Below, in pieces: positions 19,786-58,668 of a stretch of DNA of 64,000 nucleotides. Position 1 is the stretch's first letter. Each line of letters begins with the position of its first letter. Source of the stretch: a virus (lineage: Duplodnaviria > Heunggongvirae > Uroviricota > Caudoviricetes); the IMG/VR virus record IMGVR_UViG_3300017700_000469, positions 64,001-128,000 of that record; one strand, written 5' to 3'. The notes beneath the pieces are model-generated. The model was not told the DNA's origin. It did not search any database and worked only from the letters and a program-made list of their open reading frames with translations. Both the position numbers and the translations under genes were made by a program.

Positions 19786-20958
19786 TTAGTCTTCGGCCCG
19801 ATCGTTCGAGCCACACATCTTCACGATGAGTGGCTCGAACTTCGCCACGACCTCGACCAGATCGCTCTGTGCGGCCATGACTTGTTCGATGTCCTTGTAG
19901 ACGCCGACGACTTCGTCAGCGCCGGCGGACAGCACCGTGATGTTGCGAGCCGAGAGCTTCGCGATCTCGTCCCGGTAGTTGAAGACCTTCTTAGCGGCGG
20001 TCCGCGACATGCAGCGCCCGGCACCGTGCGACGCCGAGTTGAGGGACTCAGCGTTGCCCTTGCCGCGAACGATGTACGCCGGCGTCCCCATCGAGCCGGG
20101 GATGACGCCGAGCACACCGGCACCGGCGGGCGTCGCACCCTTACGGTGGACGATCACTTCCTTACCGCCGTGCGTTTCCTTCCACGCGAAGTTGTGGTGG
20201 TTCTGTACGGTGAAGATCGGTTGCAGATCGGCGGCCTTAGCGATCTCGCGATGGATGACGTCGTGGTTCGCGGCCGAGTATTCACCCATGAGGTTCATGG
20301 CGGCGAAATACTCGTCGCCTTCCGGCGTACCGAGATCGAGCCACGCAAGGTCGCCGTATTCCGGCCGCTTGGCCTTGGCGATCTTCGAGTAGTGGTTGCA
20401 GACCGCAGCGCCAGTCCCACGCGAGCCACTGTGCGACATCAGCGCGATCAGCGGGCCGGCGAGCGACAGCGATTGGTTGTTCTTGTCGAGCGTCTTTTCG
20501 TCGAAGGTGACGACGCCCCATTCGACGAAGTGGTTGCCGGACCCGCTCGTACCGAGTTGACGGCGAGCCTTGGCTTGGTTCTCTAACGTCACCGGCGACA
20601 CGCCCCAGTCGCGGGTCAGCACTTCGTGGCCGTTGTTGCCACGGTGCTCGACGCCGACGCCAAAGTAGGTGTTCCGTTCCAGCAGATCGCAGTAGCGTGC
20701 CCGGTAGCTGTCCAACTCAAAGGGACGGCCGCCGAAGACGGTGAGCTTCATCCGGCAGGCGATGTCCACGCCGACCGCATACGGGCAGACGGCGTTGTCG
20801 AGGGCGAGCACGCCGCCGATCGGCAGGCCGTAGCCTTGGTGAGCGTCAGCCATGAGAGCGCCGCCGACCGCGACCGGAAGACGACAGGCGGCTTCCATCT
20901 GCGTGATTGCGCCTTGCTCGATGCCTTCAGCGCCCCAGGTGCGATACGGAGTGGTCAT
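19786..20958 (-). CDS. rtcB: RtcB RNA 3'-phosphate/5'-OH ligase
   Basis: ADAHQGYGLPIGGV, AVGVDIACRM, LGTSGSGNHFVE, MSHSGSRG, HHNFAW, HRKGATPA, IPGSMG, SASHGAGR, KDIEQVM. Confidence 0.97.
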   Translation of the reverse strand: MTTPYRTWGAEGIEQGAITQMEAACRLPVAVGGALMADAHQGYGLPIGGVLALDNAVCPYAVGVDIACRMKLTVFGGRPFELDSYRARYCDLLERNTYFGVGVEHRGNNGHEVLTRDWGVSPVTLENQAKARRQLGTSGSGNHFVEWGVVTFDEKTLDKNNQSLSLAGPLIALMSHSGSRGTGAAVCNHYSKIAKAKRPEYGDLAWLDLGTPEGDEYFAAMNLMGEYSAANHDVIHREIAKAADLQPIFTVQNHHNFAWKETHGGKEVIVHRKGATPAGAGVLGVIPGSMGTPAYIVRGKGNAESLNSASHGAGRCMSRTAAKKVFNYRDEIAKLSARNITVLSAGADEVVGVYKDIEQVMAAQSDLVEVVAKFEPLIVKMCGSNDRAED

Positions 20959-26756: not shown

Positions 26757-28409
26757 TTAGGCGGCGTCCGCGTGGGCCGGTTTCTTGGCGTAGCCGGTGA
26801 ACTCGGCGAGGATCGACGGCGTGTCACCGTCGAAGCCGGCGATGTCCAACGTCCCGGCATCTTTCGGGTCCGCGATGCTGTGCCCGTTCGCGGCCATCGA
26901 CACGACCGCGAGCTTGGCGTTGATGCCCATCTGTTGGCGGTAGCGATCGAGAGCTTGGATCGGGTGCTCGGTCTGAGCCGAGTTCGTGTCGCTGTCCGTG
27001 TAGATCACGAACGTATCGACCGGCATGTTCTTGGCGAGTGCGTCGAGGATCGGCGCGGCACAGTTCGTCCCGGCGGCCGGCGTGTTGCTGCATCGGTTGA
27101 CGACGTCGTCGAGCCGCGAGTAGCCGCTGATGCCCAGGTCCACCATCCCATTCGAGAAGGCTGCACAGTAGCTCTGTCGCTCCGTGCGAAGCGTGACCAT
27201 CGCCATGCAGGCCGCGCCTTCACGGGCGTGGATGTGCGTGTCAGCGATCCGGCTCTGTGCCCACGACATCGACGCCGAGACGTCGATCGCGAGGTAGTGC
27301 CGCTTGTTCGTCGGCTCGACGTGGGCGAACGAGTTGTAGAAGGCGTCTTGCAACGCATCCGTGATCTGAGCCACCGGAGTCCAGGTGAGATCGCCCTTCA
27401 CACCGTGGCCGGCGGCGTAGGTGGTCTGAGCGAGCAGGAACTTGAACGGATGGACGCGAGACTTCTGCAAGGCTTTGACGTCGTGGAGGGCGTCGTTCAC
27501 CTTACGGGCTGCCAGCGACATCGGAGCGATCAAACCGATCGACGTCATCTTGTTGACGTTGCGGATCATCGCCCACATCGGCATGTGTTCGAGCAGCGCG
27601 TTCCACACCGCCGGTGAGTTGAGGAACTGCGTCGGGATGTGCTCCCGCACGAGGCGGTAGTCTCGGATGAGCTTGACGACTTGCTTCTCAGTCGTGGCCA
27701 CCTTCACTTGCTCGAAGCCTTCGATCGTCTTCAGCGACTCACCCAACGCGAAGTCGGGCTCAGCCTTCCCGACCGCGTAGCGGTACAGGTAGTTGCGATC
27801 GTGCTCGGTGGTCTTCGGGTGCGATAGCCGCAGCACGTCACGTTGCGTGAAGCCGTTACGGTTCTGGTACTTCGTCATCTGGTACGCCAGATCGGCGACC
27901 GGCTTGTCGTTGTACCAGCGGGCGATGGCGTTGCGGAGAGCACGGCCCCAGCCACGGAACTCTTGGACGTTCTTGATGAAGTCCGCGAGATCGGTGTAGT
28001 AGGTGCAGACGCGCGGCAACACGCGGAGAGCCATCTGCGACGGCGTCTCACCGGCGAAGGTGCGGGTCTCTTTGCTGCCGGCCACGAGAGCCAGCGCGAA
28101 GACGGCGGACGCATTCTTCGGAGCGCGACCGCTCTCGCTGATCTCGACGATCGCGGCGACGGTGCGGGCCGGGTCTTCGGCGACGCACTCAAAGATCGAC
28201 GTGGCATTGTCCACGGTCATCTTGGCTTCGCCGACTTGGAAGTGGCCGCCTTCGCAACCTTGGATCAGGAAGCGGTTGAGCCGGGTCCACTTGTCCACAG
28301 CGAAGCTGAAGCCGCCGCCGTCGTTCTTGACCATGTTAGTGCGGCCGGGAATGGCCTTGGTCTGCGGCGTGGAGCGGATCGACCCTAAATGCTTCGCGTA
28401 GTTGGACAC
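26757..28409 (-). CDS. rsr: Ro60 / Rsr TROVE-domain RNA-binding protein with C-terminal vWA
   Basis: KNDGGGFSF, RLNRFLI, KYQNRNGFTQRDVLRLSHPK, MPMWAMIRN, SRVHPF, AIDVSASM, FVIYTDSDT, DIAGFD; GTG start at 28409 with GGAG SD. Confidence 0.95.
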   Translation of the reverse strand: MSNYAKHLGSIRSTPQTKAIPGRTNMVKNDGGGFSFAVDKWTRLNRFLIQGCEGGHFQVGEAKMTVDNATSIFECVAEDPARTVAAIVEISESGRAPKNASAVFALALVAGSKETRTFAGETPSQMALRVLPRVCTYYTDLADFIKNVQEFRGWGRALRNAIARWYNDKPVADLAYQMTKYQNRNGFTQRDVLRLSHPKTTEHDRNYLYRYAVGKAEPDFALGESLKTIEGFEQVKVATTEKQVVKLIRDYRLVREHIPTQFLNSPAVWNALLEHMPMWAMIRNVNKMTSIGLIAPMSLAARKVNDALHDVKALQKSRVHPFKFLLAQTTYAAGHGVKGDLTWTPVAQITDALQDAFYNSFAHVEPTNKRHYLAIDVSASMSWAQSRIADTHIHAREGAACMAMVTLRTERQSYCAAFSNGMVDLGISGYSRLDDVVNRCSNTPAAGTNCAAPILDALAKNMPVDTFVIYTDSDTNSAQTEHPIQALDRYRQQMGINAKLAVVSMAANGHSIADPKDAGTLDIAGFDGDTPSILAEFTGYAKKPAHADAA

Positions 28410-28433: not shown

Positions 28434-28569
28434 ATGCGGGCAAAAAGCGAAGTGGGGAAATTTATACCGATGCTCTACCAAGCTGAGCTAACCGACGATG
28501 TTCGCCGGTGGAGGATTTGAACCTCCGACCCTCGGTTCCCGTGAATAACCCACGTCTACGGCCCGCAAT
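28434..28569 (-). ncRNA. yrlA: YrlA-type Y RNA (circularly permuted tRNA mimic)
   Basis: Order: GCGGGC-CGTAG Ro stem, T arm GGAGG-TTCAAAT-CCTCC, acceptor-like stem ACCGGCGA/TCGTCGGT closed by an ACA loop, D arm GCTC-AGCTTGGTA-GAGC, then TTGCCCGC pairing back to the 5' end; directly upstream of Ro60. Confidence 0.9.
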
Positions 28570-28573
28570 ACGG

Positions 28574-28810
28574 TTAGGTGATGTCGATCTTGTCGATCAA
28601 CGTCACCGAGCGAACGACGATGTCTTTGAGGCTGAGATCAGCTTCACACGGGTCTTCCGGCGGCTTTGGCCCGCCTTCCACGACATGGTCGCGGACTCGG
28701 CGGATCGCCACTTCGGCGTCAACGGCGATGACGTTCAGACCGGTGTAGGTCTTTGACGTCCCGGCGATTGAGCGGAACACGGTGTAATACTCAACGCGAT
28801 ACAGACTCAT
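28574..28810 (-). CDS. 79-aa hypothetical protein embedded in the Y RNA array
   Basis: GGAG SD; ATG at 28810; normal coding composition. Confidence 0.7.
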   Translation of the reverse strand: MSLYRVEYYTVFRSIAGTSKTYTGLNVIAVDAEVAIRRVRDHVVEGGPKPPEDPCEADLSLKDIVVRSVTLIDKIDIT

Positions 28811-28828
28811 CAAACACTCCAAGACAAA

Positions 28829-28890
28829 GCGAGCAAGGGATTAGCCGAGGGAAGGGATCGTGGAAGGATAACCCTCAGCAAGCGGCTCGC
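28829..28890 (-). ncRNA. Minimal Y RNA-like hairpin (no tRNA domain)
   Basis: GCGAGC-CG...GCTGAGGG-TTAT...CCCTCGGC...TT-GCTCGC; same architecture as the other Y elements. Confidence 0.7.
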
Positions 28891-28908
28891 AGTTTTACGA
28901 ATAGGAAG

Positions 28909-29044
28909 GGTGGCCGGTGGGACTCGAACCCACGACAGGCGGCTTAAAAGGCAATAAGAGTGATCGTCGGCCCGCGATAACAAAGCACCTGGACTAAGAT
29001 TGAGCACCCAAAAACGCTGCTCTACCAACTGAGCTACAGCCACC
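28909..29044 (-). tRNA. tRNA-Lys(UUU) interrupted by a 62-nt Y-RNA-like insertion (28953-29014); tRNA/Y-RNA hybrid
   Basis: Joining 29044-29015 to 28952-28909 gives (G)GTGGCTG-TA-GCTC-AGTTGGTA-GAGC-A-GCGGC-CTTTTAA-GCCGC-CTGTC-GTGGG-TTCGAGT-CCCAC-CGGCCAC-C; no encoded CCA. Confidence 0.75.
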
Positions 29045-29057
29045 ACACAAACAAACG

Positions 29058-29119
29058 ACAACGGGCAAGTTTGTGACTGAGGGACATATACCAATAACCC
29101 TCGGTCTTCGGCCCATCGT
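29058..29119 (-). ncRNA. Minimal Y RNA (YrlB-like)
   Basis: ACGATGGGC-C-GAAGACCGAGGG-TTATT...CCCTCAGTC...TT-GCCCGTTGT; contains the bacterial Ro-binding motif GCCGAAG. Confidence 0.8.
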
Positions 29120-29550: not shown

Positions 29551-29847
29551 GATTTCCAAGTTCTTCTGAGTCGCGAACTCTTCGATCAGTGCGTAGTCCG
29601 TCAGACCGAAGAACGCATTGATCTCTTGAGGGGTGGCGGGGCCGAGCGGGCCGAAGCGCTCTAAGAGATTGACGCCGGCACGTTCGGCGGCGTCGATGAG
29701 CGGCATTACGCGGAACATCTCGCCGAGGAACCAGCGATTGCCCTTGGCCTTAGCCCGGATGCACATCTTCTCGATGCGGGTCCGCCACTTCTTAGCGCGG
29801 CGTCGGCTTGGCGTCTTGAAACGACGACGGTTGAGTGCTTTGTTCAT
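29548..29847 (-). CDS. Basic hypothetical protein
   Basis: ATG 5 nt after a class 2 -10 box. Confidence 0.65.
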   Translation of the reverse strand: MNKALNRRRFKTPSRRRAKKWRTRIEKMCIRAKAKGNRWFLGEMFRVMPLIDAAERAGVNLLERFGPLGPATPQEINAFFGLTDYALIEEFATQKNLEI

Positions 29848-29852
29848 GGGAT

Positions 29853-29883
29853 TAACACGAACAAAGCACTCAACCGGTTTTCA
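29853..29883 (-). promoter_or_regulatory. Class 2 (ECF-type) promoter overlapping a 17-bp inverted repeat
   Basis: TGAAAACC-N16-CGTGTTA. Confidence 0.75.
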
Positions 29884-30828: not shown

Positions 30829-31115
30829 CGGGTGTCAGATCGAGGCCGTCGAGAGGCCAAAATCATGGTGAAATCGCTTGCTACAAGCGTTTTCATGCTG
30901 TTTTGCTGGGAGCCTGAATCTCGCTTTACGAAAGCGGTGCTCTACCAATTGAAGCTACAGCGGCGACACCAAAATCAGGGCACTTCGTTGCATTCGGGAG
31001 TGACGGGTGTCATGCTGGACGCCTGGGACGACGCCTTGACACCCGTTTGACACCCGATCTGACACCCGCCGGCTGACACCACTGACACCCGCGCAGGCGT
31101 CGGCTCTGACACCCG
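30829..31115. mobile_element. attP-like site: tRNA core plus integrase arm-type repeats TGACACCCG
   Basis: Direct copies at 31037, 31048, 31060, 31074 (TGACACCA), 31083, 31107; inverted copies at 30829 and 31004; phage-like DNA on both sides. Confidence 0.8.
30921..30964 (-). pseudogene. 5' half of tRNA-Thr(CGT) (att core)
   Basis: GCCGCTG-TA-GCTTCAATTGGTAGAGC-A-CCGCT-TTCGTAA-AGCGA, then no T arm or 3' acceptor strand. Confidence 0.85.
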
Positions 31116-31132: not shown

Positions 31133-32500
31133 ATGACGACGAGCAAACCATCTAAACCGACTCCCGACTTCCCGCTCTTCCCTCACGCCACCAAGCGATG
31201 GGCAAAGAAGATCAAAGGGAAGATGACGTACTTCGGACCGTGGGACGACCCGGCAGGCGCTCTCGCGCGATACCTGGGAACAACAACAGAACCTCAGAAA
31301 TTACCATCTCCCGAGCCTCGCGCCAAGCGGGAGGCCCCGGCCCGTCCGGCGGGGTTCCCGCTGTACGCCCATAGCAACGGCAACTGGGCTAAGAAGGTCC
31401 GGGGAAAGGTGCGGTATTTCGGACTCTGGGAAGACCCGCAGGCGGCCTTGAATAAGTGGCTCGACGAGAAGGACTCCCTACTCGCCGGCCGGGAGCCCCG
31501 GACGACGGCGAACACCGGCCTCACTGTGCTGGGGATGGTCAACGGGTTCCTTGAGGCGTGCTGGCAGCGGGTGATCGCGCCTAATCCCACCCTAAAGGAA
31601 ATGCGGAAGCGGACCTACTCGGACTACAAGATCATTGGGCAGCGGATACTCGACGTGCTCGGCCGCGAGCGGCTGGTCGAAGACCTGCGGCCGGACGACT
31701 TCGCCAAGCTGCGGGCTTCGTTCGCCGAGACGCATGGGGCGGTGGCACTCACGGTGGACATCCAGAAGTCCCGGACGTTCTTCGCCTGGGCCATCGACAA
31801 GCACGAGATTCGGGTGCGGTACGGCAGTAGCTTTAAGAAGCCGAGCAAGGGTGTGATTCGGACTGCTAAGAGTGCCAAGCAGAAGCGGTTCTTCAAGGCG
31901 GCCGAAGTACGGCAAATGCTCGGGGCGGCGTCGGTGCCGTTGAAGGCCATGATCCTGCTCGGGATCAACTGCGGATTCGGGAACGACGACTGCGCCCAGA
32001 TCACCATCGACAAGCTCGACCTGGACGGCGGCTGGCATCACTTCGCGAGACCGAAGACCGGCGTCGAACGTCGATGCCCGCTCTGGCCTGAGACGGTCGA
32101 GGCCCTTCGGGCGGCGATCGAGCAGCGGCCGAAGGCTCGCGATCCCAAGAACGCCAACCGAGTATTCATCACCCGTCGTGGATCGACGTGGGAGAAGACA
32201 GAGGACGACAACCCGATCTCCAAAGAGATCGGCAAGGTGATGAACGGCCTGGGCCTCGTGCGAGACGGGCGGAACTTCTATGCGTTCCGGCACACGTATC
32301 AGACGGTCGGCGACGCCAGCCTTCAGTCGGTGGCCGTCCGCTACGTCATGGGTCACGTCGCGACGACGGAGGACATGGCGGCGAGATACCGCGAAGAGAC
32401 GTTCGAGACCAACCTGCTCGCGGCCTCGGACTTCGTGCGGGCGTGGGTCTTCAAGTCAGATGAACCCGATAGTCCGGGCTCGACTGCTCCGGGCAAGTAA
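31133..32500 (+). CDS. int: Tyrosine integrase with duplicated N-terminal arm-binding domain
   Basis: RPKTG, FYAFRHTY, VMGHV, ARYRE; two FPLxxH..xWAKK.xGK.xYFG repeats; adjacent to att and xis. Confidence 0.92.
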   Translation: MTTSKPSKPTPDFPLFPHATKRWAKKIKGKMTYFGPWDDPAGALARYLGTTTEPQKLPSPEPRAKREAPARPAGFPLYAHSNGNWAKKVRGKVRYFGLWEDPQAALNKWLDEKDSLLAGREPRTTANTGLTVLGMVNGFLEACWQRVIAPNPTLKEMRKRTYSDYKIIGQRILDVLGRERLVEDLRPDDFAKLRASFAETHGAVALTVDIQKSRTFFAWAIDKHEIRVRYGSSFKKPSKGVIRTAKSAKQKRFFKAAEVRQMLGAASVPLKAMILLGINCGFGNDDCAQITIDKLDLDGGWHHFARPKTGVERRCPLWPETVEALRAAIEQRPKARDPKNANRVFITRRGSTWEKTEDDNPISKEIGKVMNGLGLVRDGRNFYAFRHTYQTVGDASLQSVAVRYVMGHVATTEDMAARYREETFETNLLAASDFVRAWVFKSDEPDSPGSTAPGK

Positions 32501-56016: not shown

Positions 56017-58668
56017 TTATGCGGCTGCCACGTAGTTGGCTTCCATCAGGGGTGAACGAACCTTGAGAGTGACCGAGCCACCCTTCTTTTCCGCCCAGTT
56101 GGCCTGGGACTTGTTCCACGTCATGCCGATGAGAGGCACGAGTTCGCGGTAGGACTCGACGCAGGTCTTCACGACGGCGGCGACGGGCTCGACGTAGTCC
56201 GGGTGGGTGACGGTCATCAACTCATCGTGGACGTTCATCGGAGCGACGTAGAGCGGGTGAATGCCGACCGGTTGCAAGTCCCAGATTTTGCGTTGGACCT
56301 TCTTAGTGATCTGACCGCCCGGAGATTGAATCTCGTGGTTGGCTGCGGCACGTTGGTTGCCCGCTTGAATCTGGAACGCCGCACCGTAGAGAGCCGACGA
56401 CACGGCACCGCCGGCGAACTGCACTCGATCGCGGCGAACGACCTTCACCTTGCAATCACGCCATGCCTTCGGCAGCTTGCGGCTCAGGTCGTACAGCGCC
56501 TTGGTGATCGTGTTCTCCAAGGTGAAGTAGCGGCGGAAGCCGAGGAACGATTCGACATAGTCTTCCGGGTCGCCCCAGACGACCTTGCCGCCGATGCCGT
56601 CCGGTTGCTTCATCGAGCAGAACGCTTTGAACGTCCGCTCGCGTGCCTTCGCGGATTGCGGGAACCACTTGTTCCACTGATCGAACGCCGCCTTCGCAAC
56701 TTCAGCAGAGAGGCCGAGATTTCGCACGAGGGTGCCGAAGTCACCGCCGTAGATCATCGCGAACACGCCCTGCTTACCCTTCGTGTACATATCGTTCTGG
56801 GTACCGGCCGACGCCACGATCTGCTCGTAGGTCTTGCCGGGGTACAAGCACTGCGCGAACAGAGCGTGAATCTTCTTTGTCGTCTTGCCGGTGCCGTCGC
56901 ATTCGCCGCACTCCAACGGCTCGACCGCGACGCAGTCACCGCAGCCTTCGGGTAGCGGCTGCTTGAGTTTCTTCTTAGCTGAGCAGCCCTTGCACTTCGG
57001 CTGCACCTTGCCGGTTGCCTTGCACTTATGGCAGTCCACGCGCGTCGTGAGAGCTTTGCGGAGATCGGGGTCTTTGTAGACCGCATCCGCGAGCGTCACT
57101 TCAAACGAGTCAAAGTCTCCACCGCACAGTTCGTAGTCTTCCCACGCGAGTGGGAACATGCAGCGAACTTCCTTGGTGGCCTTGATGCCTTGAGCATTGA
57201 GACCGTCGCCGCCCGACATACGAGTCGAGAGGGTGCCGATGACGTTGAACGAGGCGTGGAACTTGCCGGCCCGGATGAGCTTGCGATAGAGTTCGACTTC
57301 CTTACCGGCGATCTTCACGAGTAGGATGTCTGCTGCGCGGATGGCCGCCGGATGGTTGCCGTGCATGTCGGTGATCTCACCGACCGCGTGCAGCTTGCCC
57401 GAGCCTTCACAGCGAAGGCAATGTCCATCGTCGTGCTTGCCGAGGCCGTCGCACTTCGTGCAGTCCTCTTCCTCTTCGACTTCCCACTTGGCCACCGCTT
57501 GCAGGTTGGCCTTCTTAGTGGAGCCTTCGAGGATGACCTTCTCCATGTCGTCCATGCACGCACCGATGTACGCGCGGACTTCGCTCGGCTTGTTGATGTT
57601 CACCGGTGCCGCTTTCACGATCGCTCGTGCCTTGCGGTACAGTTGCATCATGCCCTTGCCGTCAGTCTTGAATCCTCGCCAACGAATGACGGGGACCATG
57701 CAGGCGAGGATCGAGTCGTCGTCACCGGCGGGCAGCCGCTCGACGCCGGCGAGCTTCGCAAAGTATTTGCACAGGTCGCGGGTGTAGAGAATATCGTCGC
57801 TCGCGTAGTCACGAGCGTCTTCGCGATCGGCCCAGTGGTCGATGAAGTGCTTGATGACGCCGGGCCATGCGTGGCCGATCAGCTTGCGAGTTCGGTTCTC
57901 GACCTTGTAGACTTCCCAGTTCCGCTCGGGCTTCGAGACGGAGAGGGCGGTCGGAGCGAAGCCCAACTCTTTGGGCAGCCACGCGCGATCGGGCTCGACG
58001 TCCTTGTAGTGGTACTTCGGCTTGTAGCCGAGAGCATGTTCGGCGAGGAACTTCAACCCGCCCGCCGGATTGAACCGGAGCACGACGTCTTTGAAGTTGG
58101 GATCGATCTCGCCGTCCCGGCGCTTGATGTCGAAGACCTGCCAGCGCGGCGCATCCTTGTCGTGGCTGCGGGCGAAGTAGATGCCGTCGATCGAGACGCG
58201 CTCTTCCAGTTCCTCGGCCAGCGCATACGAGAGCGCGGTCGGCACACGTCGGATACGAATATCCGAGCGGGCCATGAGGGATTGGTACGGACCTTTGCGA
58301 GAGTGCAAGAGAAGATCGAGCGAGTTGGCCGGTTTGAGGCACGGGCCGCTTTGAGCCTTCGGCTCAAGCATCGCGATCTCGTTGATATGCTCTTCGGGAA
58401 TCCAATCCCGTGGGCATAGAGAGAAGGTCGTGTAAATCTTCACGACGTGGAACCAGTCGAACACGAGGTTGAAGCCAACCACCGTGTGCGTGCAGACCCA
58501 TTCGAGCAGGTCGAGGGTCTCGCCGATCGGCCGCCGCCATACGTCGTAGAGGACGATGGGGCCGTCCTCGACGGCGTACTGAAACAGAACCATCATCGAG
58601 TGAAGCCCGCAGGTTTCACTATCGATGTAGATGTACTTATCCGCGTTGTTGGCTAAGTCGTACTTCAT
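56017..58668 (-). CDS. polA: Family A DNA polymerase with 3'-5' exonuclease and two Cys-rich insertions
   Basis: IDSET (ExoI), FNLVFD (ExoII), YASDD (ExoIII), DFDSFE (A), KQGVFAMIYG (B), VHDEL (C). Confidence 0.92.
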   Translation of the reverse strand: MKYDLANNADKYIYIDSETCGLHSMMVLFQYAVEDGPIVLYDVWRRPIGETLDLLEWVCTHTVVGFNLVFDWFHVVKIYTTFSLCPRDWIPEEHINEIAMLEPKAQSGPCLKPANSLDLLLHSRKGPYQSLMARSDIRIRRVPTALSYALAEELEERVSIDGIYFARSHDKDAPRWQVFDIKRRDGEIDPNFKDVVLRFNPAGGLKFLAEHALGYKPKYHYKDVEPDRAWLPKELGFAPTALSVSKPERNWEVYKVENRTRKLIGHAWPGVIKHFIDHWADREDARDYASDDILYTRDLCKYFAKLAGVERLPAGDDDSILACMVPVIRWRGFKTDGKGMMQLYRKARAIVKAAPVNINKPSEVRAYIGACMDDMEKVILEGSTKKANLQAVAKWEVEEEEDCTKCDGLGKHDDGHCLRCEGSGKLHAVGEITDMHGNHPAAIRAADILLVKIAGKEVELYRKLIRAGKFHASFNVIGTLSTRMSGGDGLNAQGIKATKEVRCMFPLAWEDYELCGGDFDSFEVTLADAVYKDPDLRKALTTRVDCHKCKATGKVQPKCKGCSAKKKLKQPLPEGCGDCVAVEPLECGECDGTGKTTKKIHALFAQCLYPGKTYEQIVASAGTQNDMYTKGKQGVFAMIYGGDFGTLVRNLGLSAEVAKAAFDQWNKWFPQSAKARERTFKAFCSMKQPDGIGGKVVWGDPEDYVESFLGFRRYFTLENTITKALYDLSRKLPKAWRDCKVKVVRRDRVQFAGGAVSSALYGAAFQIQAGNQRAAANHEIQSPGGQITKKVQRKIWDLQPVGIHPLYVAPMNVHDELMTVTHPDYVEPVAAVVKTCVESYRELVPLIGMTWNKSQANWAEKKGGSVTLKVRSPLMEANYVAAA

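What the first reader, a model, noticed from the sequence alone, without database searches (positions are those of the whole stretch)
28909..29044. Canonical tRNA-Lys(UUU) split by a 62-nt Y-RNA-like module in its anticodon stem
Seen: deleting 28953-29014 joins GCG to GC between tRNA positions 29 and 30. That gives a perfect cloverleaf with a 7-bp acceptor, D arm, 5-bp GCGGC/GCCGC stem, CTTTTAA loop, 5-nt variable region and T arm. The insert carries GCGGGCCGA and TTATT, the words conserved in the neighbouring Y RNAs. Known: YrlA RNAs fuse a Ro-binding stem to a circularly permuted tRNA body; RtcB joins 2',3'-cyclic-P/5'-OH ends; tRNA-Lys(UUU) is the target of the anticodon nuclease PrrC. Inference, three options: (a) a latent tRNA activated by excision and RtcB ligation; (b) a Ro60-tethered decoy for anticodon nucleases; (c) a non-permuted evolutionary intermediate between tRNA and YrlA. 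I know of no described Y RNA with open acceptor ends and a reconstitutable anticodon arm, but I could not search for one.
Basis: partly seen in the sequence, partly recalled or inferred. Interest (0 to 1): 0.9.

Follow-up and report, generated by a model that had tools for sequence, protein, structure and literature searches.

The report
tRNA-Lys carrying a Ro60-docking arm
A phage gene that looks like a lysine tRNA split by a 62-base insert is most likely a partner RNA of the phage's Ro60 protein: a complete tRNA body with the Ro60-docking helix grafted into its anticodon stem, a layout I did not find described, although it recurs beside Ro60 genes in many phages and in cyanobacteria.

Summary
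On the minus strand, 28909-29043 is a canonical tRNA body (Rfam tRNA 44.2 bits) with 62 extra bases between positions 29 and 30. Deleting 28953-29014 gives a clean ARAGORN tRNA-Lys(UUU).

The insert folds as a loop-closed copy of the Ro60-binding helix seen in the neighbouring Y RNAs. It sits in a cluster: Y RNA, chimera, Y RNA, small ORF, YrlA-like RNA, Ro60.

A covariance model built only from similar RNAs elsewhere scores it at 79 bits. The window's plain tRNA scores 41. I collected 38 such RNAs in 24 records, and both module helices covary. A TROVE (Ro60) gene is present in 21 records; the other three are fragments.

Most members keep a canonical anticodon loop. However, related cyanobacterial copies carry CUU, GUU or GCC on one scaffold, and some members carry Ser or Leu anticodons on short-variable-arm bodies. 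No splicing endonuclease gene and no BHB motif were found.

Best reading: a tRNA-order Y RNA that keeps its arm and displays a tRNA-Lys anticodon arm while bound to Ro60. Excision with RtcB ligation is not excluded but has no support. The decoy idea is open.

Earlier notes of this scan report the same class in other phages. I found no paper describing it.

The parts
28909..29043 (-). Whole chimera: a tRNA-order Y RNA, with a tRNA-Lys(UUU) body plus a Ro60-docking arm (135 nt; no encoded CCA; discriminator C at 28909)
   Evidence: Rfam tRNA 44.2 bits. Model R1, built from other loci, gives 79.1 bits, E 2.6e-15, full length.
29015..29043 (-). 5' tRNA part: acceptor 5' strand GUGGCUG, U8 A9, D arm, A26, and anticodon-stem nucleotides 27-29 (GCG)
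   Evidence: ARAGORN cloverleaf after deletion of the insert; Rfam alignment.
28953..29014 (-). The 62-nt insert, a loop-closed Y module. In order: J1 UUUUU 29010-29014; H1 5' strand GGGUGCUC 29002-29009; internal-loop strand AAUCUUA 28995-29001; H2 GUCC 28991-28994; 17-nt cap 28974-28990; H2' GGGC 28970-28973; CGAC 28966-28969; H1' GAUCACUC 28958-28965; J2 UUAUU 28953-28957
   Evidence: Descriptor parse. The RNAfold minimum-energy fold of the insert is this fold. The R1 alignment places H1, H2, CCGACGA and UUAU on the family consensus, with the 17-nt cap as an insertion.
28909..28952 (-). 3' tRNA part: anticodon-stem nucleotides 30-31 (GC), loop CUUUUAA (anticodon UUU at 28946-28948), GCCGC, variable CUGUC, T arm, acceptor 3' strand, discriminator C
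29060..29117 (-). Free-standing Y RNA (Y1), 16 nt upstream of the chimera
   Evidence: Model R2, built from 17 Y RNAs of related loci, gives 55.3 bits, E 4e-12. Rfam nematode sbRNA family, 32 bits. Fold z = -2.9.
28828..28891 (-). Free-standing Y RNA (Y2), 17 nt downstream of the chimera
   Evidence: R2 41.4 bits, E 1.6e-8. Fold z = -3.5.
28434..28566 (-). YrlA-like permuted tRNA-mimic Y RNA, just upstream of Ro60
   Evidence: Rfam YrlA 41.4 bits, E 7.6e-7, below the gathering score of 69. The fold shows a Ro stem plus T arm, closed acceptor and D arm, z = -2.3.
26757..28409 (-). Phage Ro60 (TROVE plus Ro60 vWA domains), 550 aa
   Evidence: Pfam PF05731 at 9.5e-42 and PF25045 at 2.5e-53. Homologues named 60 kDa SS-A/Ro.
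19822..20901 (-). RtcB RNA ligase gene (context only; 8 kb from the chimera)
   Evidence: PF01139 at 278 bits, at G000:C1:83822-84901.

Best explanation
The element is a Y RNA built in tRNA order. A complete tRNA-Lys(UUU) body carries, between nucleotides 29 and 30 of its anticodon stem, a hairpin that is a loop-closed copy of the Ro60-binding helix of the flanking Y RNAs. That hairpin has two helices around a CGA / ..CUU internal loop and is followed by UUAU.

Shown here: the anatomy, its membership in a covarying family, and that family's near-obligate co-occurrence with Ro60 genes.

Inferred, step 1: the RNA is made from the same transcript as the Y1, Y2, YrlA and Ro60 cluster.

Inferred, step 2: its tRNA body is trimmed by the host tRNA end-processing enzymes.

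Inferred, step 3: the arm is kept. It docks the phage Ro60 ring, while the three-way junction leaves the 5-bp anticodon stem stacked. The particle therefore displays an intact tRNA-Lys anticodon loop and an open acceptor end.

Inferred, step 4: as with other Y RNAs, the non-Ro module (here a whole tRNA) brings Ro60 together with a tRNA-recognising factor, or competes for that factor. The phage's RtcB points to a tRNA damage and repair setting.
For: 1. Context. The order is Y1, chimera, Y2, ORF, YrlA-like RNA, Ro60 on one strand. The same sigma factor, small ORFs, Y RNAs, Ro60 synteny is present in relatives, and two of them (L126, L127) have a tRNA-order chimera in the same slot between two Y RNAs.

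2. Family membership. Model R1 was built without the window, from three records that look phage-derived (one of them binned in a Kofleriaceae MAG) and from cyanobacteria. It scores the element at 79.1 bits with H1, H2, CCGACGA, UUAU and the anticodon arm aligned. The plain tRNAs of this phage score 41-44 bits.

3. Covariation. There are 38 family members in 24 records. All 9 pairs of H1 and all 5 pairs of H2 show changes on both sides. 95.9% of cells are paired, against 41-51% when partners are slid.

4. Link to Ro60. A TROVE gene is present in 21 of the 24 records. The 3 without one are 5-41% complete fragments.

5. The module also exists as free-standing Y RNAs beside the chimera, so it behaves as a protein handle and not as an intron.

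6. Signs that the arm stays and that the RNA does not decode:
- There is no tRNA splicing endonuclease gene in the phage.
- The junctions do not form a bulge-helix-bulge motif (by inspection).
- Some members have the loop replaced outright (L126, L127, L150).
- Cyanobacteria carry tandem copies beside their chromosomal Ro60.
- Copies that are 82-86% identical outside the anticodon carry CUU, GUU or GCC.
- Ser (GCU, UGA) and Leu (UAG) anticodons sit on short-variable-arm bodies.
- The window's discriminator is C, not the A usual for tRNA-Lys.
Against: - No expression, processing or binding data exist for this RNA.
- The window's module is a weak example. H1 has a C.U mismatch, H2 has a G.U pair, the cap is 17 nt where the family has 3-8, and the fold energy is no better than shuffles (z = -0.16).
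- Its sequence likeness to the Y-RNA strands is not significant on its own.
- The seven closest Ro60 loci with upstream sequence (61-71% identity) have no chimera at all.
- The perfect, canonical anticodon arm (29 of 38 members keep a 7-nt loop with U33 and R37) is also what a spliced, functional tRNA would need.
- This phage has no other tRNA-Lys.
- The alignment used for the covariation counts was fitted to the model's structure.
Confidence: 0.6

Rival explanations
1. Latent tRNA. The 62-nt module is cut out at 29/30 by a host or phage endonuclease and the halves are sealed by the phage RtcB. This releases a decoding tRNA-Lys(UUU), possibly with Ro60 as chaperone or gate.
For: Deleting the insert gives a flawless tRNA-Lys(UUU). 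The phage encodes RtcB and has no other tRNA-Lys. Split but perfect anticodon arms are strongly over-represented in the family (25 of 65 against 0.42). The insertion point is nearly fixed at 28/29 or 29/30.
Against: No tRNA_int_endo gene is present. The junctions form no BHB motif, and the insert is far too small for a group I intron; Rfam finds no intron or ribozyme. The same module is a free-standing Y RNA next door. Family members with a replaced loop cannot yield a tRNA. Anticodons switch on a conserved scaffold, and Ser or Leu anticodons sit on class I bodies. Cyanobacteria, which have full tRNA sets, keep tandem copies at their Ro60 locus.
Confidence: 0.12
2. Processing punctuation only. 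The tRNA body serves mainly as an RNase P / 3'-end processing signal that releases Y1 and Y2 from a polycistronic transcript. The anticodon arm and the arm's Ro60 binding are incidental.
For: The chimera sits 16-17 nt from Y1 and Y2. No sigma-70-like promoter or terminator lies inside the cluster on this strand. YrlA is reported to be a substrate for several enzymes that recognise tRNAs (PMC4201824).
Against: Relatives release the same Y RNAs without any chimera (L120-L125, L129). A processing signal would not need a conserved, covarying Ro60-type helix or a canonical anticodon loop.
Confidence: 0.08
3. Decaying gene. A former tRNA-Lys was disrupted by recombination with a neighbouring Y RNA and now has no function.
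For: The module is the weakest in the family (mismatch in H1, long cap, z = -0.16). The chimera is absent from the seven closest Ro60 loci with upstream sequence.
Against: Every tRNA helix and tertiary-contact position is intact, and the split stem is perfect. The R1 score of 79 bits lies within the range of family members. The same architecture recurs independently with compensatory changes.
Confidence: 0.07

Closest known systems
YrlA (Y RNA-like A, Rfam RF02553; Chen et al. 2014, PMC4201824; structure preprint 10.1101/312249)
   Same: It is encoded next to Ro60. It joins a Ro60-binding bulged helix to a tRNA-like module with canonical D and T arms. The Ro helix is attached where the anticodon arm of a tRNA would be. 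A YrlA-like RNA lies 340 nt downstream in this same cluster.
   Different: YrlA is circularly permuted: its 5' and 3' ends lie at the Ro helix, its acceptor stem is closed by a loop, and it has no anticodon loop. Here the ends are the tRNA's own open acceptor ends, the Ro helix is closed by a loop, and a full 5-bp anticodon stem with a 7-nt loop is kept. Rfam YrlA does not match this RNA or its relatives; they are called tRNA only.
Deinococcus radiodurans Yrn1 (Y RNA; described in PMC4201824)
   Same: It is modelled with D-like and T-like arms in tRNA order and with an 'anticodon arm' of 5 bp. It binds Rsr (Ro60) and tethers it to PNPase.
   Different: In Yrn1 the Ro-binding stem takes the place of the acceptor stem, and the 'anticodon loop' has 6 nt. 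Here the acceptor stem is free, the Ro helix branches from the anticodon stem, and the loop is a canonical CUUUUAA.
Free-standing Y RNAs (metazoan Y RNAs and nematode sbRNAs; phage Yrl1/Yrl2 of Thermus phage phiLo, PMC12135203)
   Same: They share the helix, CGA-type internal loop, helix architecture followed by UUAU. This is the architecture of Y1 and Y2, which flank the chimera.
   Different: In those RNAs the conserved helix is formed by the RNA's two ends. Here the strand order is reversed and the helix is capped, so it can sit inside another RNA.
Intron-containing tRNAs (archaeal BHB introns at non-canonical sites such as 29/30; bacterial group I introns in anticodon loops)
   Same: An intervening sequence whose removal restores a perfect cloverleaf. 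RtcB is the ligase of the archaeal and eukaryal pathway.
   Different: No BHB motif, no endonuclease gene, and a size far below group I introns. The 'intron' is a protein-binding module that also exists as a separate gene.

Membership tests
tRNA (RF00005) | Cloverleaf with acceptor, D and T arms and conserved tertiary positions, scoring above the Rfam gathering score | tested here: met
   44.2 bits against a gathering score of 29; acceptor, D and T arms aligned at high posterior probability.
tRNA (RF00005) | Contiguous 5-bp anticodon stem with a 7-nt loop in the transcript as encoded | tested here: not met
   62 nt interrupt the 5' strand between positions 29 and 30. ARAGORN finds no tRNA unless 28953-29014 is removed.
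tRNA (RF00005) | CCA addition, aminoacylation and use in decoding | not testable with these tools
   CCA is not encoded. The discriminator is C, where A is usual for tRNA-Lys (my own knowledge). No expression data.
YrlA (RF02553) | Scores at or above the family's gathering score | tested here: not met
   No YrlA match to 28909-29043 even at E up to 10. Relatives of the chimera are called tRNA only.
YrlA (RF02553) | Permuted order: Ro stem formed by the 5' and 3' ends, then T arm, closed acceptor hairpin, D arm | tested here: not met
   The order here is acceptor 5' strand, D arm, Ro module, anticodon loop, T arm, acceptor 3' strand.
YrlA (RF02553) | Encoded next to a Ro60/Rsr gene | tested here: met
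   Ro60 at 26757-28409, about 500 nt downstream on the same strand.
Y RNA (functional class: Ro60 partner RNA) | Conserved bulged helix of the Ro60-binding type | tested here: met
   H2 GUCC/GGGC, loop strands AAUCUUA and CGAC, H1 GGGUGCUC/GAUCACUC, then UUAU, matching the flanking Y RNAs in reversed strand order. Both helices covary across 38 relatives. It is a weak example thermodynamically.
Y RNA (functional class: Ro60 partner RNA) | Physical binding to Ro60 | not testable with these tools
   Needs co-immunoprecipitation or a gel-shift assay.
tRNA-order Y RNA / tRNA chimera (family defined here by model R1) | R1 score clearly above plain tRNAs, with the module aligned | tested here: met
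   79.1 bits against 41-44 bits for this phage's own three plain tRNAs; plain tRNAs of the other loci searched reach about 58 bits at most. The model was built without the window.
tRNA-order Y RNA / tRNA chimera (family defined here by model R1) | A TROVE/Ro60 gene in the same record | tested here: met
   Met for the window. Family-wide it holds for 21 of 24 records; the 3 exceptions are 5-41% complete fragments.
Spliced tRNA (archaeal-type BHB intron) | Bulge-helix-bulge motif at the two junctions, and a splicing endonuclease | tested here: not met
   By inspection no 3-4-3 BHB can be drawn at G29|U and U|G30. PF01974 is absent from the complete phage genome. The host is unknown.
Spliced tRNA (group I intron) | Group I intron fold within the anticodon loop | tested here: not met
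   No Rfam intron or ribozyme match. The insert is 62 nt and lies in the stem, not the loop.

The most novel reading that the evidence does not exclude
The anticodon arm is a swappable bait. The Ro60-bound chimera presents a genuine tRNA-Lys(UUU) anticodon stem-loop to a host tRNA-targeting defence nuclease or other anticodon reader. It would act as a tethered decoy, inhibitor or damage sensor that couples the attack to Ro60-linked RNA decay or to RtcB repair. The anticodon would be retargeted quickly in evolution: CUU, GUU and GCC occur on one scaffold, and Asn, Lys, Cys, Thr and Arg loops recur across the family.
Probability: 0.22. Interest if true: 0.85.

Novelty: new variant of a known kind. 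Interest (0 to 1): 0.7.

Why it matters
Bacterial Y RNAs are known as Ro60 tethers whose second module mimics part of a tRNA, but what that mimicry is for remains open. This RNA and its relatives show a second, unpermuted design. It keeps everything a tRNA has: open acceptor end, elbow and a canonical anticodon loop.

That makes some ideas directly testable. Is the RNA given a CCA end or charged? Is it bound by a synthetase or cut by an anticodon nuclease? Does Ro60 ride on it?

The family also turns up beside Ro60 in cyanobacteria and in a Kofleriaceae (Myxococcota) MAG contig that is rich in tRNA genes and may be phage-derived. Cyanobacteria and delta-proteobacteria are the two groups in which the original YrlA survey found few Y RNAs (PMC4201824), so this design may be the missing partner there. 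That link is an inference.

In phages the family sits with RtcB-type repair genes. A Ro60-like phage protein has been reported to counter a defence system (PMC11482910).

Tried and rejected
1. Similarity search against phage GenBank records (blastn, distant mode) with the whole RNA cluster: no match.
2. The search for related loci with the single Ro60 protein in viral contigs: nothing. With an alignment in metagenome contigs: one short locus without a chimera.
3. nhmmer profiles of the two Y-RNA strands: they find Y1 and Y2 but not the insert (0.3 bits), so sequence words alone do not establish homology.
4. Thermodynamics: the whole-element fold and the insert fold are no better than shuffles. 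The minimum-energy fold of the whole RNA even breaks the T arm.
5. The MAFFT alignment that included the window misplaced its H2 because of the 17-nt cap. I therefore built the model without the window and let Infernal align it.
6. My automatic descriptor parse mis-anchored several members. I rely on the covariance-model alignment for the counts.
7. Host identification through the attP-like tRNA-Thr fragment: no exact match in genome contigs.
8. ARAGORN's intron mode gives an implausible tRNA-Gln with a 45-nt intron for the unspliced gene, and two spurious giant-intron calls in the genome. I ignored these.
9. Two reviews of bacterial Y RNAs (PMC10870794, PMC6047535) are not held, so my literature check is incomplete.

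Full report
**What is there**

The window is bases 64001-128000 of a 136.5-kb IMG/VR phage genome with direct terminal repeats. On the minus strand, 28909-29043 matches the Rfam tRNA model at 44.2 bits, with a 73-nt unaligned block in the anticodon arm. ARAGORN does not call it.

Removing window 28953-29014 joins GCG to GC. ARAGORN then reports tRNA-Lys(ttt) with a 7-bp acceptor stem, a D arm, the stem GCGGC/GCCGC, the loop CUUUUAA, the variable region CUGUC and a T arm.

**Surroundings**

All of the following lie on the same strand:
- A covariance model (R2) built from 17 free-standing Y RNAs upstream of related phage Ro60 genes finds Y1 at 29060-29117 (55.3 bits) and Y2 at 28828-28891 (41.4 bits). 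These lie 16 and 17 nt from the two ends of the chimera.
- Further downstream are a small ORF and a YrlA-like RNA (Rfam 41 bits, below the gathering score).
- Then comes a 550-aa Ro60 with TROVE and Ro60-vWA domains.
- An ECF-type sigma factor and two small ORFs lie upstream.
- RtcB lies 8 kb away.
- The rest of the genome holds no other chimera or Y RNA, and only tRNA-Thr, tRNA-Met and tRNA-Asn.

**The insert**

Read 5' to 3', the insert is: UUUUU; H1 GGGUGCUC; AAUCUUA; H2 GUCC; a 17-nt cap; GGGC; CGAC; GAUCACUC; UUAUU. This is also the RNAfold minimum-energy fold of the insert.

This is the helix, internal loop, helix, UUAU architecture of Y1, Y2 and the YrlA-like stem, but with the strand order reversed and the end that is normally open closed by a loop. 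Such a module can sit inside another RNA.

Taken alone the case is weak. A sequence profile of the Y-RNA 5' strand gives the insert 0.3 bits. The fold is no more stable than shuffles (z = -0.16; Y1, Y2 and the YrlA-like RNA give -2.3 to -3.5).

**Comparative evidence**

Two pattern scans (D arm, long gap, T arm; and the same with GCCGA in between) brought in many tRNA-shaped genes with 45-75-nt inserts from viral contigs and from bacterial genomes.

From seven of these that clearly share the Y-type module, I built model R1 with a hand-set structure (tRNA plus H1 plus H2 plus split anticodon stem). The seven are L197 and L165 from viral contigs, L288 from a Kofleriaceae MAG contig that is rich in tRNA genes, and four copies from a Leptolyngbyaceae and a Nostoc genome. 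The window was not included.

R1 scores the window's element at 79.1 bits (E 2.6e-15) over its full length. H1, the CUU-type strand, H2, CCGACGA, UUAU and the anticodon arm all lie on the consensus, and the 17-nt cap is treated as an insertion. The window's plain tRNA-Asn gets 41.4 bits and the phage's other two tRNAs 41-44 bits.

Across 43 sources, plain tRNAs reach 58 bits at most. Thirty-eight RNAs of 113-137 nt score 61-137 bits. In their alignment:
- all nine H1 pairs and all five H2 pairs show changes on both sides;
- 95.9% of cells are paired, against 41-51% when partners are slid by one to three columns;
- no shuffle reaches the observed values.

The caveat is that this alignment was fitted to the model.

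**Link to Ro60**

Of the 24 records that hold these 38 RNAs, 21 encode a TROVE protein, in the fetched locus or elsewhere in the record. The three without one are contigs estimated at 5-41% complete.

In the genome-contig scan, the only six loci with a Ro60 hit were exactly the six that contain chimeras. The remaining matches, the six tandem-tRNA look-alikes among them, had no Ro60 hit. Rfam calls these RNAs tRNA, never YrlA.

Among the window's nearest Ro60 relatives, L126 and L127 have a tRNA-order chimera in the same slot between two Y RNAs, although with the module in the loop and not in the stem. L124 is cut off about 200 nt upstream of its Ro60, so it is uninformative. The seven others with upstream sequence (61-71% Ro60 identity) have Y RNAs and YrlA only.

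**Is the arm removed?**

I found nothing that would remove it:
- no tRNA splicing endonuclease gene in the complete phage genome;
- no BHB motif that can be drawn at the junctions;
- no intron or ribozyme family match.

The module is also a free-standing gene next door.

The anticodon arm is nevertheless clearly under selection in the family. Perfect split arms occur in 25 of 65 acceptor-paired candidates, against 0.42 expected from shuffles and 6.3 from swapping the 5' heads. Of the 38 R1 members, 29 have a 7-nt loop with U33 and a purine at 37. The insertion point is almost always 28/29 or 29/30.

The loops do not behave like those of decoding tRNAs:
- Cyanobacterial copies that are 82-86% identical elsewhere carry CUU, GUU or GCC.
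- GCU, UGA and UAG anticodons sit on bodies with 5-nt variable regions.
- Some members have no anticodon loop at all.
- Cells with full tRNA sets keep tandem arrays of these RNAs at their Ro60 locus.

**Best reading**

I therefore read the element as a Y RNA in tRNA order that keeps its arm. The three-way junction has nothing between the two stem halves on the 3' strand, and 5-nt U-rich linkers on the other strand. This lets the 5-bp anticodon stem stack while the Ro60 handle branches off. Ro60 would then be carried on an RNA that looks, to a tRNA-binding factor, like tRNA-Lys(UUU).

What that factor is remains inference. Hughes et al. suggested that YrlA's tRNA-like domain might inhibit an anticodon nuclease (PMC7790460). 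A Ro60-like protein of phage Bas63, which sits next to 'tRNA' genes, was reported to counter a defence system (PMC11482910). This phage carries RtcB.

**Known or new**

- Chen et al. 2014 (PMC4201824) describe the permuted YrlA. They also describe Yrn1, whose arms are in tRNA order but whose Ro stem replaces the acceptor stem.
- I found no paper describing a tRNA with open acceptor ends, a loop-closed Ro helix in the anticodon stem and an intact anticodon loop. Two reviews were not available.
- Earlier notes of this scan report the same class, and an 'ACAGCAA' sister class, in other phages. I saw that sister class too.

I rate this a new variant of a known kind.

Noticed in passing
window 30931-31110 (-) and 31133-32500 (+): A likely attP region. 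The 5' part of a tRNA-Thr(CGU), from acceptor to anticodon arm, diverges after the anticodon stem. About six GGGTGTCA repeats follow (arm-type sites?), then a tyrosine integrase gene. The 43-nt tRNA fragment has no exact match in the genome collection, so the host stays unknown.
   Followed up: partly
window 29817-29883, both strands: A near-perfect inverted repeat of about 24 bp between the sigma-factor gene and the next ORF. It shows up only as spurious microRNA-family matches. It could be an operator or a terminator.
   Followed up: no
window 58315-58368 (-): A weak match to the free-standing Y-RNA model (14.8 bits, E 0.13). It has the GAGCCGAAG ... CCAACUCGCUC ends but no upper stem.
   Followed up: no
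L029 vs L088 (IMG/VR contigs): Two nearly identical tRNA-shaped genes of the sister class (hairpin plus ACAGCAA insert at 28/29) differ at about five positions. Two of these are in the anticodon: UCU against GUU. This is another case of anticodon switching on a fixed scaffold.
   Followed up: partly
L275:3999-4531 (Leptolyngbyaceae MAG); L311, L330, L345, L348 (L311 is a Nostoc MAG; I did not look up the organisms of the other three): Two to four tandem tRNA-order chimeras lie directly beside a chromosomal Ro60 gene. Cyanobacteria are a group in which the 2014 YrlA survey reported few Y RNAs.
   Followed up: partly
L120-L125, L129 upstream of Ro60; window 28574-28822 (-): Small ORFs of 50-110 aa are interleaved with the Y RNAs in all related loci. 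Several look hydrophobic when translated by eye. The window's 82-aa ORF has no Pfam match.
   Followed up: no
L288 (Kofleriaceae MAG contig): The Ro60 gene and its chimera sit inside an array of about ten plain tRNA genes, so this 'bacterial' contig may be a phage or prophage.
   Followed up: no
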